Shown here one piece after another: positions 644-38,424 of a stretch of 64,000 bases of DNA (positions are counted from its first letter, which is position 1; every line of letters starts with the position of its first letter). The position numbers were made by a program, and so were the translations under genes. Source of the stretch: Octopus vulgaris. Its lineage: Eukaryota. The notes under the pieces were generated by a model that saw nothing but the letters and a program-made list of their open reading frames with translations, was not told the DNA's origin and made no database searches. The stretch spans positions 58,652,001 to 58,716,000 of the forward strand of contig OX597820.1 of the NCBI GenBank assembly GCA_951406725.2, in the 5' to 3' direction.

Positions 644-793
644 AAATATAGCGACACCGATTTCCTGTCTAGTTACAAGATGCTGGGTCTCGGACATCCA
701 GTTATTTTATCACAGACAGCAGCACACGTGTCAGGAGCTGCATATTACTATCAACGCAAAGATGTCCCTGAGGATACCTGGCCCGCAAATAAG
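644..793 (+). CDS. MMACHC: MMACHC/CblC-like paralog A, exon 3 (exons 1-2 lie upstream of the window)
   Basis: tag| acceptor at 641-643 and |gtcagt donor at 794; 50 codons [50 protein letters not shown], matching the CblC signature [20 protein letters not shown]; phase 0 at both ends. Confidence 0.88.
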
Positions 794-907
794 GTCAGTA
801 AAATTAACCTAATATACAATAATTTAACATTCTTATTGTCTGCTTTATTAAGCGTTAATGTTGTTGTCACTGTTATGCTTCTTGTTGCTGCTACTACTGT
901 TGTTGAT

Positions 908-1019
908 TTCTTCTTCTTCTTCTTCTTCTTCTTCTTCTTCTTCTTCTTCTTCTTCTTCTTCTTCTTCTTCTTCTTCTTCTTCTTCTTCTTCTTCTTCTTC
1001 TTCTTCTTCTTCTTCTTCT
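908..1019. repeat. (CTT)n microsatellite in copy A intron 3
   Basis: Perfect trinucleotide run. Confidence 0.95.
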
Positions 1020-2158
1020 AATCAGGACTCACGCCATTAGCCACAAAGAATAATCTCTAATTCGAGCCTACTCTAAGCTACTAAGAATTCGTGTGGCAAC
1101 TTGAAGATTCACCCACCACACGCGATAGACTGGCGGTTGCACGGGCGCGAAAGCTACTTTGTTATCCTCATTCCGTAAACGGTGGCTTTTAACAGGTGGA
1201 GAGCTGAACCATCCTGGGGTACAGAGGATTCGCAATCTAGATTAGGGTCTGAATGCTTACCACACCATAGTGGGTTACGCCATGGTTCCTCTGCTTTGTG
1301 AAGTAGGAAGAAAGAGTGAGAGAAAGTTGTGGTGAAAGAGTACAGCGGGGTTCACCACCCCAACCCAGCCGGAGCATCGTAGAGCTTAGGTGTTTTTGCT
1401 CAAGAAACACTCACAATGCCCGGTCTGGGAATCGAAACCGGCGTTCTTACGGCCGCGAGTCCGCTGCCATTGTGCCTACACTGTTGTTGTTGATGTTGCT
1501 GGCTCTTGCAGGCATGTTGTTCATTATAATGAACGATATTAATTTATTGAAGGTTGTTTTTGTTTTTTTATCTTTTACTTCTTACGGTCACTGGAATGCG
1601 GCTATACTGGGATACCAACTTGAACTATTTACTCGAACAAATTGATACTAGTACTTTTCTTTAAAGTCTGATACTTATTCTGCCGGCATCTATTGCCCAG
1701 CCCCTAGGTTACAGGGAAGTAAACAAACCAACACTGGTTGTCAAACGGTGGGTGGGCAACAAGCATAAATACATACACGTGATTGAGAGGGAATAGATCC
1801 AGCGGATCTTTACCTTTTGACTGACAGATTAAAAAAAAATTTTTTTTGTAACTAAACACTTTCAAACTGTAGGTCAAAAGGTAAAGATCCGATTCTGCAT
1901 TGTTTCATACATACATACATACATACATACATACATATATAAGATAAAACTTACTATTAAATGGATGCGTGGCGCGTTCGATCATATGATTATATATATA
2001 TATATATATATATATATATATACATATATACACACATACATGTACATGCCTACACTTTTAAATGAAGATAATTTCTATCGTTTTTACAACCACATATTTT
2101 TATAAGAAATGATTAATTTCTTTTTTCTTTTTCTTTTTACTTGCTCTATGTATTTCAG

Positions 2159-2527
2159 ACAATTTATGGTTTTGCTATTCATCCACGATATGGAGGCTGG
2201 GTTAGAATCCCAGGTGTTATCGTGTTTAAGAATGTTATGTTACCCAGCAACTTCACTTGTCTGACGCCTCCAGATGTCGTTCCGACCGTTGAGAAGAGGA
2301 TACAGTTGTTAAATGAAGTGAATAACGACTGGTCGAGTTGGAAATTTGCCGATATCATTCCTGTGGAGAAGAAATATACCCCTGAAGCCAAAAAGTACTT
2401 CTCCTCTTACGGTGAACAACGAGATAAATTATTGAAAGATATCAGCAAAAGATGTTATCGGTGGAAAATAATCAGATTGATACTAAAGTATCTTAAGAAA
2501 CTTTACCTTCGTTTCAAAAAGTATTAA
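2159..2527 (+). CDS. MMACHC: MMACHC/CblC-like paralog A, terminal exon 4
   Basis: Polypyrimidine tract and ttcag| at 2158; TIYGFAIHPRYGGWVRIPGV...PPDVVPT...NDWSSWKFAD...YTPEAKKYFS aligns to CblC ISGVCIHPRFGGWFAIRGV...WRDWTYRD...YSEEQKAYFS; stop ends at 2527. Confidence 0.88.
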   Translation, partial: TIYGFAIHPRYGGWVRIPGVIVFKNVMLPSNFTCLTPPDVVPTVEKRIQLLNEVNNDWSSWKFADIIPVEKKYTPEAKKYFSSYGEQRDKLLKDISKRCYRWKIIRLILKYLKKLYLRFKKY

Positions 2528-35036: not shown

Positions 35037-35631
35037 CTAAAAAGGTATAAAGGCTGGAAGAATATTCTTAAAGAAATACGCGTATCGCCCTTCTTTGCAT
35101 GATTTTTCCGTTTCTCTAACTATTGAAATTGTCTGACTTAATTTTGAAGAGAAATATTGTTTTGCTTCCTCAGAAAACGGTTGCCTTCCCGGCATAAAAG
35201 AAGCATGTCGCCATTCCATAGTACCTATTTCTTTATTACCCACAAGGGGCTAAACACAGAGGGGACAAACAAGGACAGACATAGGTATTAAGTCGATTAC
35301 ATCGACCCCAGTGCGTAACTGGTACTTAATTTATCGACCCCGAAAGGATGAAAGGCAAAGTCCACCTCGGCGGAATTTGAACTCACAACGTAACGACAGA
35401 CGAAATACGGCTACGCATTTCACCCGGCGTGCTAACGATTCTGCCAGCTCGCCATTCCATAGTACCATTGTGTAGTGACTGTAGAACATATCTTCTATGT
35501 TCATGAGATGGAAGGGCATCGAATGGGAGAGGATAAAGAAGACTGGGCAGTTTGAAATCTCGAAAAACAATCACTGCTGGGACAGTAAACCATGCGCCAT
35601 ACTTGTGATGGACTGCAAATTCAAGTGGCTT
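35037..35631 (-). CDS. MMACHC: Divergent MMACHC/CblC-like paralog C, terminal exon 4, interrupted by a SINE (35226-35448); pseudogene allele or new intron
   Basis: ttacag|KPLEFAVHHKYGAWFTVPAVIVFRDFKLP...HNGTMEWR[SINE]HASFMPGRQPFSEEAKQYFS...F*; the frame is open on both sides once the 241-nt insertion is removed. Confidence 0.78.
35226..35448 (-). mobile_element. SINE family 2 inserted in copy C exon 4, with a perfect 18-bp flanking direct repeat
   Basis: tcgccattccatagtacc at 35208-35225 and 35449-35466. Confidence 0.93.
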
Positions 35632-37106
35632 CTGTAAATAGACGAGAAAACATCATGAGGACACATAATAATAATTTCTGGCCATTTTTTAAAAAATTAT
35701 TATCTAATCTTTGGTGTTGACGTCACCGATTTTTTTAATTATGAAGAATGATAAAATAAATTCCATTTTTGCCAGCGTAAAAGTATAAAAGTATAAAATA
35801 ATTGTTTTGACAATATAAAGCTCAAAGGTACAAAGGTAAAGACAGGGCCAGCCTAAACTTACCACCTACCCTCATTCTTCTGTGTAAAAAATAAGTTGAC
35901 ACGCCCAATTACCAAGGGCTTAAATACTGAGCTGTGTACCTTAGATATTATATTGTCAAGCGAAAGGATTAAATGCAGTAATGCCAAAAGCGCCCAAAAT
36001 GCTTTCAAACCTTGTGCCCACTTATCTAAAGAGAAACACCTACAAGCTTGTTTACCAATTGCTATACGCATGAATAAATTCCAAACACTAACATATCCCC
36101 AAATTTAATCAATGAAAAATTTTCCAAAACCCCTTTCCATAACAACTGACTACAAAAACCTAATTACTATTCACTAGAGCAGCGGGTGGGGACGGTTCGC
36201 CCCGGGCGGTACTTTTAAAAAGGTGGCACTTTTGGGTCTGCTGTAGGCTACAGATGATTAAAACTCAACAGGAACTATATAAAAGCAAGACCGACGATGG
36301 GTTGGCTGGCCGAAACTTCGAAGTCGCTGTCAACAACATTCTTGTGTAAGAATACAAAATTTGCACTTTACAAAAGAATGGAGTGACCCATCAGATTAAT
36401 ATGAAATTGATTTTATTATAACTGAACATAAAAACAAACACTAATATATGTACATACATGTGTGTGTGTGTGTGTGTGTGTGTGTGTGTATGGACGGCGA
36501 ATTTCGAAATAAACATGTCATGCTCTACCATTGAGCTAAAGCGATCCTTCAAATTTCTCAATTCATTTTAAAAACTTTATTCTCACCAGAGAGAATTGTA
36601 TGATGTTGAGGTCATGAGAAGTTAAAAACTTCGAGAACGTGAAATAATTCCTTTTAGTCTCGAAGCAAATGCAGCTACAAATAATAGCGTTTAAATACTG
36701 GGTTGAAACGTCTATGGATAGAAAAGCCCCACGAGAAGCCTTCAACTTTTTCTATCCGAAGGAGTTCTAATCTAATATTCACACTCTATAATTTATAGCT
36801 TTATGTGCTTCTAGATTCACTTTGGAATCCCATCATCGTTCAGGCTCGTACACATTACACTACACAAGCATGTTCGATTACTGTATTATCCGAGCGTGCA
36901 ACTCATAGTAGCTCACAAATAAATATTGTTTATTAAATATTTATCTCTCGCTGGATGGAATATATTTTTGTTGATCCTGCCAATAATGGAAGAGTACATT
37001 CTATACATACATACATACATACATACATACATACATACATACATACATACATACATACACACACATATATATATATATGTATATATATATATATATATAT
37101 ATATAT

Positions 37107-37553
37107 AGTGGCTGTGTGGTAAGTAGCTTGCTTACCAACCACATGGTTTCGGGTTCAGTCCCACTGCGTGGCATCTTGGGCAAGTGTCTTCTGCTATAGC
37201 CCCTGGCCGACCAATGCCTTGTGAGTGGATTTGGTAGACGGAAACTGAAAGAAGCCTGTCGTATATATGTATATATATATATATATATATATATATATAT
37301 ATATATATATATATATATGTGTGTGTGTGTGTGTGTGTGTGTGTGTGTGTGTGTTTGTGTGTCTGTGTTTGTACCCCTAGCATTGCTTGACAACCGATGC
37401 TGGTGTCTTTACGTCCCCGTCACTTAGCGGTTCGGCAAAAGAGACCGATAGAATAAGTTCCGGGGTCGATTTGCTCGACTAAAGGCGGTGCTCCAGCATG
37501 GCCGCAGTCAAATGACTGAAACAAGTAAAAGAGTAAAAAAGAGAGTAAAAGAG
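37107..37553 (+). mobile_element. SINE family 1 in copy C intron 3
   Basis: Consensus match, slightly 5' truncated. Confidence 0.85.
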
Positions 37554-38286
37554 TATATACATATATTTAAAATTAAAATCAAAATGCGGGTGAAAAAATT
37601 GGATATTAATTTGATAATATCAATTTTAACACCAGTGGTCTAGCATATAAAAAAACTGAGATTCAGTAAATAGTATTTCATACATAAATATAAGGGGGAA
37701 TTTTTTTAACCACTATGTGGAAAACCTTATGCTAGATGAAGAGCCGGTATGGTCTTAACCACTAAGAATTGTTCTCCAGAAAATTTAGCACACCAGAAAC
37801 GTAAGCGAGTAAGACAAATGAAAAGTAACAAAAAGTGTTACTCACTCTTTCACTCTCTCTCTCTCTCTCTCTCTCTCTCTCTCTCTCTCTCTCTCTCTCC
37901 TTCTTTCTTTCTTTCTTTCTTTCTTTCTTTCCTTCTTTCTCTCTCTCTCTCTCTCTCTCTCTCTCTCTCTCTCTCTCTCTCTCTCTCTCTTTTTTTCTCT
38001 CTCCCTCTTTCTCTCTGTTTCACTCACTCTCTCTGACACGCAAGTGAGCACATAGGTGCACAACAAAATGGGAAAATGTGGAAGATGTTTGCAAGCCTTT
38101 CAAGAACACACAAAAACCGTTAGTTTCACTTCAACATTTAAATTTCATTTGTATTAAAATATTTTCGTCGTTTTGAAACCGCGACCTGTTCATCGACAAA
38201 ACTTCGAGCTGCATCTCACTTGCTATGCATTTTCGTAATTTATAGGAAAAATTATCGATCAACAAGAATCGATTATGTCTACTTAC

Positions 38287-38424
38287 CTTTGTCTTTGGCC
38301 AAGTATAATGCAGGACATCAGATTGAGTATATCGGTAAGCAACACCTGTGACGTGTGCGGCTATATTGGTATTAAGATTGCTGTGATGTCCACGCACGTT
38401 TCCGAGAATAATATCGACGTATTC
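38287..38424 (-). CDS. MMACHC: Divergent MMACHC/CblC-like paralog C, exon 3
   Basis: Minus strand tttcag|EYVDIILGNVRGHHSNLNTNIAAHVTGVAYRYTQSDVLHYTWPKTK|gtaagt; retains AAHVxG.AY.Y...DV...TWP..K and the same phase-0 donor position as copies A and B. Confidence 0.8.

What the first reader, a model, noticed from the sequence alone, without database searches (positions are those of the whole stretch)
644..38424. Expanded cluster of divergent CblC/MMACHC-like genes that share loss of the glutathione-binding arginines
Seen: three distinct paralogs with CblC intron positions. A and B are tandem on + (42/50 aa identical in exon 3); C is convergent on - and far more diverged. Aligned by eye to human CblC, all three have Pro at R161 (GGWVRIP / GGWVRFP / GAWFTVP vs GGWFAIR) and Ala at R206 (WKFAD / WKFAD / WRHAS vs WTYRD). 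The D104 and PNRRP-loop region is rewritten (SSYKMLGPGHP), while AAHVxG.AY.Y and the Trp residues are kept. Known: R161, R206 and R230 form the GSH pocket used for cobalamin dealkylation, R161 and R206 substitutions cause cblC disease, and MMACHC is usually single-copy. Inference: the same two substitutions in otherwise diverged paralogs point to an old, neofunctionalised subfamily, such as a non-dealkylating B12 or tetrapyrrole binder or a flavin-reductase-fold enzyme with a new substrate, rather than decay.
Basis: partly seen in the sequence, partly recalled or inferred. Interest (0 to 1): 0.8.

Follow-up and report, generated by a model that had tools for sequence, protein, structure and literature searches.

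The report
Likely secreted octopus B12-enzyme paralogs
This octopus gene cluster encodes old duplicates of the vitamin-B12-processing enzyme CblC that have lost two glutathione-binding arginines and the partner-docking loop and gained the sequence marks of exported glycoproteins, so they likely act as secreted B12 binders rather than as cytosolic enzymes.

Summary
The observation largely holds. The window (Octopus vulgaris) has three MMACHC/CblC paralogs with Pro at R161 and Ala at R206. Corrections: R230 is kept in A and B; C is only exons 3-4, broken here by a 241-bp repeat and an early stop, although other individuals carry an uninterrupted allele.

The copies are old and constrained: orthologs in O. 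bimaculoides and Argonauta, A-B dN/dS 0.18. They branch inside cephalopods beside a separate Argonauta MMACHC that keeps all three arginines.

The cuttlefish sister proteins, and an independently arisen oyster paralog, carry signal-peptide-like extensions. The octopod copies have an uncharged hydrophobic first helix, N-glycosylation sequons absent from 198 of 198 canonical sequences, and new cysteine pairs. The loop that docks CblD is rewritten, while cobalamin-pocket residues and the fold remain (model TM 0.80-0.85 to human CblC).

Best reading (0.45): secretory-pathway, non-dealkylating cobalamin binders. Secretion, disulfides and B12 binding are inferred, not measured. Nothing on this was found in the searched literature. 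New variant of a known family; interest 0.65.

The parts
644..793 (+). Copy A exon 3 (phase 0/0); rewritten 104-116 loop, QTAAHV motif
   Evidence: matches P0005 = CAI9725732.1
2159..2527 (+). Copy A exon 4 with stop; P161, A206, R230 kept, Cys180 and Cys245, basic amphipathic tail
15458..15541 (+). Copy B exon 1: start Met and hydrophobic first helix with the N14 sequon
20235..20441 (+). Copy B exon 2 (69 codons); Cys31, Cys71, D77/D80 equivalents
23429..23578 (+). Copy B exon 3; ends in the Asn-Lys of the N146 sequon completed by exon 4
27288..27629 (+). Copy B exon 4 with stop; P161, A206, R230 kept, Cys181 and Cys246
   Evidence: B = P0006 = CAI9725735.1
38287..38424 (-). Copy C exon 3 (46 codons), intact splice sites
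35449..35631 (-). Copy C exon 4, part before the insertion (P161)
35208..35448 (-). 241-bp high-copy SINE-like insertion in C exon 4; 18-bp target-site duplication at 35449-35466 and 35208-35225; absent from contigs of runs X1, X5 and X17
   Evidence: the label SINE is my inference from size, copy number and duplication
35037..35207 (-). Copy C exon 4, part after the insertion (A206 region, Cys at the 246 column); stop at 35037-35039 in the window, seven codons later in the four runs
47036..47242 (-). Duplicate of B exon 2 (4 of 207 bases differ), without exon 1 or 3 in the window
45042..64000 (-). Inverted copy of 2730-22428 (about 1.7% substitutions); recent duplication or retained second haplotype

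Best explanation
These genes are cephalopod duplicates of MMACHC/CblC that lost R161, R206 and the CblD-docking loop and gained a hydrophobic N-terminus, glycosylation sequons and paired cysteines, so they likely enter the secretory pathway and are predicted to bind cobalamin there without removing its upper ligand. Steps: (1) shown by trees: a duplication in cephalopods, before octopods and cuttlefish split, left a canonical copy (seen in Argonauta) and this clade. (2) Shown by sequence: the anchor for glutathione and the loop that contacts CblD were rewritten, so the copies have dropped the cytosolic GSH-to-CblD relay (inferred from human mutant data). (3) Inferred: entry into the ER, by an added cleavable signal peptide in the Sepia branch and by an uncleaved hydrophobic first helix in octopod A and B, followed by N-glycosylation and two disulfides (predicted C31-C181 and C71-C246 in B). 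(4) Inferred: the retained pocket holds cobalamin base-off, as CblC does, so the protein would serve to capture, carry or store B12 outside the cytosol (gut lumen, haemolymph or eggs; tissue unknown). Glutathione is scarce there (general knowledge), which would release the GSH site from selection.
For: Ancestry: careful tree of 28 proteins; all cephalopod rows with the canonical Argonauta copy 97/98, the six divergent rows 92/79, Sepia plus sister 100/99, octopod rows 100/100. Canonical Argonauta GAB1604734.1 lies on a 30.2-Mb contig, the divergent pair on a 48.4-Mb contig. Constraint: dN/dS 0.18. Signal-like extensions in front of helix 1 in full-length Sepia-cluster P0320, its sister P0322 and oyster XP_022310268.1; the P0322 model shows a low-confidence 1-30 extension before a confident helix 1. 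Best 11-residue hydropathy in the first 30 residues: A 2.51, B 1.65, other octopod rows 1.60-2.27, the three extensions 2.25-2.89, against 0.72 +/- 0.39 in 166 canonical rows; 0 of 166 reach A's value and 1 of 166 reach B's. Sequons: the N146 site is in 7 of 8 divergent cephalopod rows and 0 of 198 canonical; the N14 site in 4 of 6 octopod rows and 0 of 198. Cysteines: C246 in 8 of 8 divergent cephalopod rows, always with C71, and in 0 of 166 canonical; C31 and C181 together in 6 of 6 octopod rows, both absent in the Sepia branch, 3 and 1 of 166 canonical. Pocket: Q118, H122, Q131, G147, H151, W157 and W200 kept in A and B; model pLDDT 93.6, TM 0.80-0.85 to human CblC. Literature: R161/R206/R230 anchor GSH and Q131 bonds cobalamin (PMC9464900); loop 104-116 with N110/R111/R112 is the CblD interface (PMC12501144). 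Convergence: oyster paralogs also lost R161 and the loop, nest with the oyster canonical gene (100/99), and one clade with the cephalopod ones is rejected (p-AU 0.019).
Against: No signal-peptide predictor was available; hydropathy is a proxy, and the sequences are related, so the counts are not independent. In A and B the hydrophobic stretch is helix 1 itself, modelled as part of the fold (pLDDT 87-98), has no clear cleavage site by eye, and is short; B's value is only just above the canonical range, and 5 of 198 R161-bearing rows also reach 1.6 or more, one of them 2.79. Three of four full-length oyster R161-less rows have no hydrophobic N-terminus, so loss of R161 does not require export. 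A and B keep R230, D80 and Y215 and gain R159, so some thiol binding may survive. D104 (195 of 198 canonical) and W30 (182 of 198) are lost, which may alter or abolish B12 binding. Cys-Cys distances could not be read from the models. A canonical copy was shown for Argonauta, not for O. vulgaris: no named cephalopod was among the 120 listed of 467 hits to a canonical mollusc query. Expression of A and B was not tested. A bivalve has transcripts annotated as transcobalamin (PMC7998362, passages), so molluscs may not need a new carrier. The grouping was chosen after a first tree had been seen, which weakens the AU test.
Confidence: 0.45

Rival explanations
1. Exported as above, but the pocket now binds something other than cobalamin (another corrinoid or tetrapyrrole, a pigment or a small hydrophobic ligand), for example in a gland secretion or in eggs.
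For: The same export marks. D104 and W30 are lost in A and B; C has also lost W200, R230 and Y215 and is only 36-38% identical to A and B. Repeated duplication suggests diversification.
Against: The QTAAHV..AYYYQ core, Q131 and W200 are unchanged in all six octopod A/B-type rows and the fold is fully kept. No alternative ligand is indicated by any search.
Confidence: 0.22
2. Intracellular, possibly membrane-attached proteins that no longer dealkylate but keep flavin-dependent decyanation or reduction, or store cobalamin. The hydrophobic helix 1 and the amphipathic tails bind membranes or partners and are not export signals.
For: Helix 1 is modelled as folded in place; no clear cleavage site; decyanation uses flavin, not GSH (PMC10740964); three oyster R161-less rows lack any signal.
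Against: It does not explain the conserved sequons shared with signal-bearing sister proteins, the co-occurring cysteine pairs, or the clear extensions in P0320, P0322 and P0324.
Confidence: 0.2
3. Still a GSH-dependent dealkylase with a rearranged pocket: the new Arg159, on the same strand two residues from 161, replaces R161 and works with R230, D80 and Y215.
For: R159 is in A, B, O. bimaculoides A and both Argonauta copies, and in none of the R161-bearing rows printed; R230, D80 and Y215 are kept.
Against: O. bimaculoides B has Ser at 159, and C has Thr; R206 has no substitute; the CblD loop is gone; a canonical copy exists in Argonauta.
Confidence: 0.09
4. Decaying duplicates. True of the C allele in this window and probably of neighbouring fragments, not of the subfamily.
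For: The window's C has a repeat insertion, an early stop and no detectable exons 1-2; models CAI9725740, CAI9725742 and CAI9725743 look chimeric or degenerate.
Against: dN/dS 0.18 for A-B; intact orthologs in two other octopods; an uninterrupted C in contigs of three runs and an 81%-identical C relative, P0271.
Confidence: 0.04

Closest known systems
MMACHC / CblC (Pfam PF16690; human structures 3SC0, 3SOM, 5UOS, 7WUZ, 9MRS; C. elegans 5UJC)
   Same: Family profile far above cut-off (214 and 205 bits against 27); about 35% identity and predicted fold TM 0.80-0.85; Q118, H122, Q131, W157, W200, Y215 and R230 kept in A and B.
   Different: R161 to Pro, R206 to Ala, D104 to Ser, W30 to Cys; loop 104-116 (CblD interface) rewritten; hydrophobic N-terminus, conserved sequons and new Cys pairs; multi-copy cluster beside a separate canonical gene (shown in Argonauta). 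Human CblC is described as the cytoplasmic receiver of B12 (PMC12501144).
Transcobalamin / haptocorrin / intrinsic factor (secreted B12 carriers)
   Same: Proposed role only: exported glycoproteins that bind cobalamin.
   Different: No homology: Pfam gives only MMACHC and the fold search gives CblC. Transcobalamin binds base-on (PMC9464900); a CblC fold would be expected to bind base-off.
Crassostrea virginica R161-to-Asp MMACHC paralogs (XP_022310268.1, XP_022310642.1 and others; annotated only as MMACHC-like)
   Same: Loss of R161 and of the PNRRP loop, multiple copies beside a canonical gene, a signal-peptide-like extension in one of four full-length rows.
   Different: Independent origin from the oyster gene; R206 mostly kept; no C246; three rows have no signal.

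Membership tests
MMACHC/CblC family (PF16690) | Pfam profile above the gathering score | tested here: met
   A 214.1, B 205.3, C relative P0271 52.5 bits; cut-off 27
MMACHC/CblC family (PF16690) | CblC nitroreductase-like fold | tested here: met
   predicted model pLDDT 93.6; TM 0.80-0.85, rmsd 1.7-1.8 to ligand-bound human chains
Canonical CblC alkylcobalamin dealkylase | GSH pocket triad R161, R206, R230 (with D77, D80, Y215) | tested here: not met
   P161 and A206 in A, B and C; R230, D80 and Y215 kept in A and B; residue roles from PMC9464900 section 12
Canonical CblC alkylcobalamin dealkylase | Loop 104-116 with D104 and N110/R111/R112 for CblD docking | tested here: not met
   interface from PMC12501144 passages, which also reports that these contacts matter less than the Co-S bond
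Canonical CblC alkylcobalamin dealkylase | Base-off cobalamin binding | tested here: inconclusive
   Q131 and neighbouring conserved residues kept, D104 and W30 lost; binding itself cannot be measured here
Canonical CblC alkylcobalamin dealkylase | Cytosolic protein without export signal | tested here: inconclusive
   hydropathy, sequons and Cys pairs point to export; no signal-peptide predictor or localisation data
Canonical CblC alkylcobalamin dealkylase | GSH-dependent dealkylation and flavin-dependent decyanation | not testable with these tools
   needs recombinant protein
Transcobalamin/haptocorrin/intrinsic factor | Homology to the transcobalamin fold | tested here: not met
   only MMACHC matches
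Transcobalamin/haptocorrin/intrinsic factor | Secreted glycoprotein that carries B12 | not testable with these tools
   functional analogy only; inferred
Pseudogene (copy C) | Inactivating lesions fixed in the species | tested here: not met
   lesions are in the window, but contigs of X1, X5 and X17 lack the insertion and all four runs lack the early stop

The most novel reading that the evidence does not exclude
Cephalopods, and separately oysters, turned the cytosolic B12-processing enzyme CblC into a secreted vitamin B12 carrier: a functional counterpart of intrinsic factor, haptocorrin or transcobalamin built on an unrelated fold, holding B12 base-off, with octopods using their first structural helix as an uncleaved export signal.
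Probability: 0.3. Interest if true: 0.85.

Novelty: new variant of a known kind. Interest (0 to 1): 0.65.

Why it matters
MMACHC is known as a cytosolic enzyme. An exported, non-dealkylating form would be a new use of the fold and a concrete candidate for how cephalopods take up, move or store vitamin B12. The parallel case in oysters makes it a replicated change from enzyme to binder. The proteins are also natural variants at the cblC disease positions R161 and R206; human R206Q is reported as poorly soluble (PMC9464900), so they may show how the fold tolerates these losses. Each claim is testable with standard expression and binding assays.

Tried and rejected
- Whole genome: none is held for this window, so a canonical O. 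vulgaris copy and C's exons 1-2 could not be sought directly.
- Idea that the repeat in C is removed as a new intron (its duplication offers GT and AG ends for a clean cut): rejected as unnecessary. The insertion-free form stands in a contig of X17 that also runs into the intron, so it exists as DNA. X16 breaks at the site and says nothing.
- Sequencing runs: no RNA holder listed on record; 15 of 20 rows are guessed RNA. X1 and X5 have no cover in intron bins 35640-35914; a hole alone proves nothing.
- Homodimer prediction for B (residues 1-250, two copies): no verdict, score 0.00; no evidence either way.
- ESM Atlas: MMACHC clusters at the top, nothing new.
- Search for C exons 1-2 with exon profiles over six frames and over 235 candidate exons: only the B exon 2 duplicate. 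A very diverged exon could be missed.
- dN/dS with C: synonymous sites saturated (A-C undefined; B-C 0.24, interval 0-0.52); not used as support.
- First tree (78 rows) was the quick fallback with a very long C branch; C's exact place is unresolved, and C was left out of the careful tree.
- Terminal inverted repeats around the transposase-like ORF at 40686-42515: none convincing.
- Earlier findings of this scan: none by sequence or by words.
- Literature searches: MMACHC+octopus 0; type C protein+cephalopod 1, a primer table only; +oyster 0; MMACHC+signal peptide+paralog 2, listing only, unrelated by title; cyanocobalamin reductase+octopus 0; two broader searches, listings of 20 of 27 and 15 of 33, none on this by title.

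
Full report
SOURCE AND ANATOMY. Exon 4 of copy A is 100% identical to an Octopus vulgaris protein, so the window is from that genome. A is P0005 (CAI9725732.1, 268 aa) and B is P0006 (CAI9725735.1, 260 aa), each clustered with an O. 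bimaculoides RefSeq ortholog. B is complete in four phase-0 exons (15458-15541, 20235-20441, 23429-23578, 27288-27629). A shows exons 3-4 only because the window starts inside it. C, on the minus strand, shows exon 3 (38424-38287) and exon 4 (from 35631). The stretch 2730-22428 recurs inverted at 45042-64000 with 175 mismatches in 10,529 aligned columns and carries a second B exon 2; this may be a recent duplication or a retained haplotype.

CHECK OF THE OBSERVATION. Alignments to human CblC chains place Pro on R161 and Ala on R206 and show the 104-116 loop rewritten. Of 247 aligned family members, 214 were full-length; 198 keep R161 and 16 do not, 14 of them cephalopod or oyster paralogs.

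COPY C. In the window, exon 4 is cut by a 241-bp high-copy repeat with an 18-bp target-site duplication; read through, the frame stops inside the repeat, so the A206 motif is not reached. Four public runs were laid on 34760-36400. One contig each in X1 and X5 (two studies, RNA by guess only) joins 35207 to 35449 without the repeat, stops matching at 35633, two bases past the exon boundary, and goes on for 414 and 531 letters that were not shown; I infer these are upstream exons of a spliced transcript. A contig of X17 also lacks the repeat and runs into the intron, so the uninterrupted form exists as DNA. All four runs differ from the window at shared sites; these turn the window's stop into a sense codon and extend the frame by seven residues. 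An unnamed relative of C, P0271, is 81% identical. So C is a real, probably transcribed gene, and this assembly holds a broken allele or copy. Its exons 1-2 were not found in the window.

AGE AND CONSTRAINT. A against B gives dN 0.143, dS 0.784, ratio 0.18 (0.10-0.30; 148 codons). Canonical genes with the arginines occur in bivalves, gastropods and a chiton. The profile search of 50%-identity representatives (571 hits, best 150 listed) returned P0175, an Argonauta hians protein (GAB1604734.1) on a different contig from that species' two divergent copies; it keeps R161, R206, R230 and D104 and has no hydrophobic N-terminus, though its own 104-116 loop is shortened. In a careful tree of 28 proteins (C left out), all cephalopod rows group at 97/98, with P0175 sister to six divergent rows (92/79, not starred): Sepia plus an unnamed sister (100/99) and the octopod copies (100/100). 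Oyster R161-less paralogs nest with the oyster canonical gene (100/99), and a joint clade with the cephalopod ones is rejected (p-AU 0.019; group named after a first tree). Cephalopod branches are long, so their deep grouping carries some risk. A canonical copy in O. vulgaris itself was not shown.

SIGNS OF EXPORT. Cluster look-ups gave fuller versions of three relatives. P0320 extends the Sepia pharaonis model by 19 residues, P0322 extends its sister, and Crassostrea XP_022310268.1 has a similar start. Each begins with a hydrophobic stretch followed by small residues, in front of the normal first helix; the P0322 model confirms an extra, low-confidence segment 1-30 before helix 38-50. The octopod proteins have no extension, but their first helix is uncharged and hydrophobic (A 2.51, B 1.65; canonical 0.72 +/- 0.39, maximum 1.78, n = 166 rows chosen for R161, R206, a start Met and 220-300 aa). 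All six octopod models start at the same Met, and B has no in-frame Met in the 50 codons upstream. Sequons are enriched (3 each in A and B, up to 9; canonical mean 0.63 per 250 aa), and the N146 site, formed across the exon 3-4 junction, is shared by 7 of 8 divergent cephalopod rows and 0 of 198 canonical ones. C246 appears only in this clade and always with C71; C31 and C181 appear together in octopods only. C and P0271 have the C246-column cysteine but not the N146 sequon. These rows are related, so the counts describe a few evolutionary events, not independent trials. Against export: helix 1 is modelled as part of the fold, three oyster R161-less rows have no signal, and 5 of 198 canonical rows also score 1.6 or more.

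MECHANISM. Human CblC binds cobalamin base-off, uses GSH held by R161, R206 and R230 (plus D77, D80, Y215) to dealkylate, uses flavin to decyanate, and passes the cofactor to CblD through a Co-S bond and loop 104-116 (PMC9464900, passages and section 12; PMC10740964, passages and part 2 of 5; PMC12501144, passages). The paralogs have lost two of three arginines and that loop, and keep the fold (pLDDT 93.6; TM 0.80-0.85) and Q118, H122, Q131, W157 and W200. The simplest joint reading is a move out of the cytosol, where neither GSH nor CblD is needed, with the cobalamin pocket retained for binding. Shown: residue changes, ancestry, constraint, sequence marks. Inferred: export, glycosylation, disulfides, loss of dealkylation, B12 as ligand, and any carrier role. 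I give 0.45 to this, 0.22 to export with another ligand, 0.20 to an intracellular non-dealkylating form, 0.09 to a rearranged but active GSH site and 0.04 to decay.

COMPARISON AND NOVELTY. The proteins are members of PF16690 but fail two defining features of the canonical dealkylase. They are not related to transcobalamin-type carriers, which they may resemble in role; those have been traced in vertebrates and two invertebrate deuterostomes (PMC4350170, passages), and a pearl oyster study names transcobalamin-2 transcripts (PMC7998362, passages). The databases seen label the octopus proteins hypothetical or ordinary MMACHC. Seven searches aimed at a prior description found none; the library lacks most subscription journals, and I read no supplementary files, where cephalopod proteome or transcriptome tables may already list these proteins. 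Verdict: a real, old, constrained subfamily; a new variant of a known family; interest 0.65, higher if secretion and B12 binding are confirmed.

Noticed in passing
window 40686-42515 (-): Stop-free 610-codon ORF with a Spin-doc zinc finger (PF18658), probably a hAT/SPIN-like transposase, upstream of C exon 3. Its end is spliced into gene model CAI9725740.1 (P0246), and the flank at 40334-40549 supplies false last exons to two models.
   Followed up: partly
window 2730-22428 and 45042-64000: Large inverted duplication at about 1.7% substitution divergence, lacking the 13730-19480 part with B exon 1. It points to a further A-like copy just beyond 64000, perhaps degenerate model CAI9725743.1 (P0011). 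Real duplication or retained haplotype not resolved.
   Followed up: partly
window 35208-35466 (-): The repeat's target-site duplication creates GT and AG ends that would allow exact removal as a 241-nt intron. Not needed to explain the runs, but the insertion allele could be tested for such splicing.
   Followed up: partly
window 35016-35100 (-) and 2450-2527 (+): C-terminal tails differ: A ends in a strongly basic amphipathic stretch; the uninterrupted C allele ends in a hydrophobic stretch with a final Cys-Leu-Cys-Leu, CaaX-like (motif recalled); P0271 ends hydrophobic without it. Membrane attachment is possible.
   Followed up: no
P0320 against P0033 (CAE1172260.1): The annotated Sepia pharaonis MMACHC starts at an internal Met and lacks the 19-residue hydrophobic leader seen in an identical longer record, so annotation may hide export signals in this family.
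   Followed up: partly
Crassostrea virginica P0012, P0015, P0200, P0324, P0327, P0328: Independent oyster expansion of R161-to-Asp MMACHC paralogs, with and without a signal-like leader.
   Followed up: partly
window 49959-50795 (-), 12291-12884 (-): LINE remnants: an RVT_1 match in the first; the second looks retroelement-like by eye but has no Pfam match.
   Followed up: no
PMC5999225 (passage seen: primer table): A squid stomach and intestine transcriptome study lists an MMACHC homolog among its qPCR targets; which paralog it is cannot be told from what I read.
   Followed up: no
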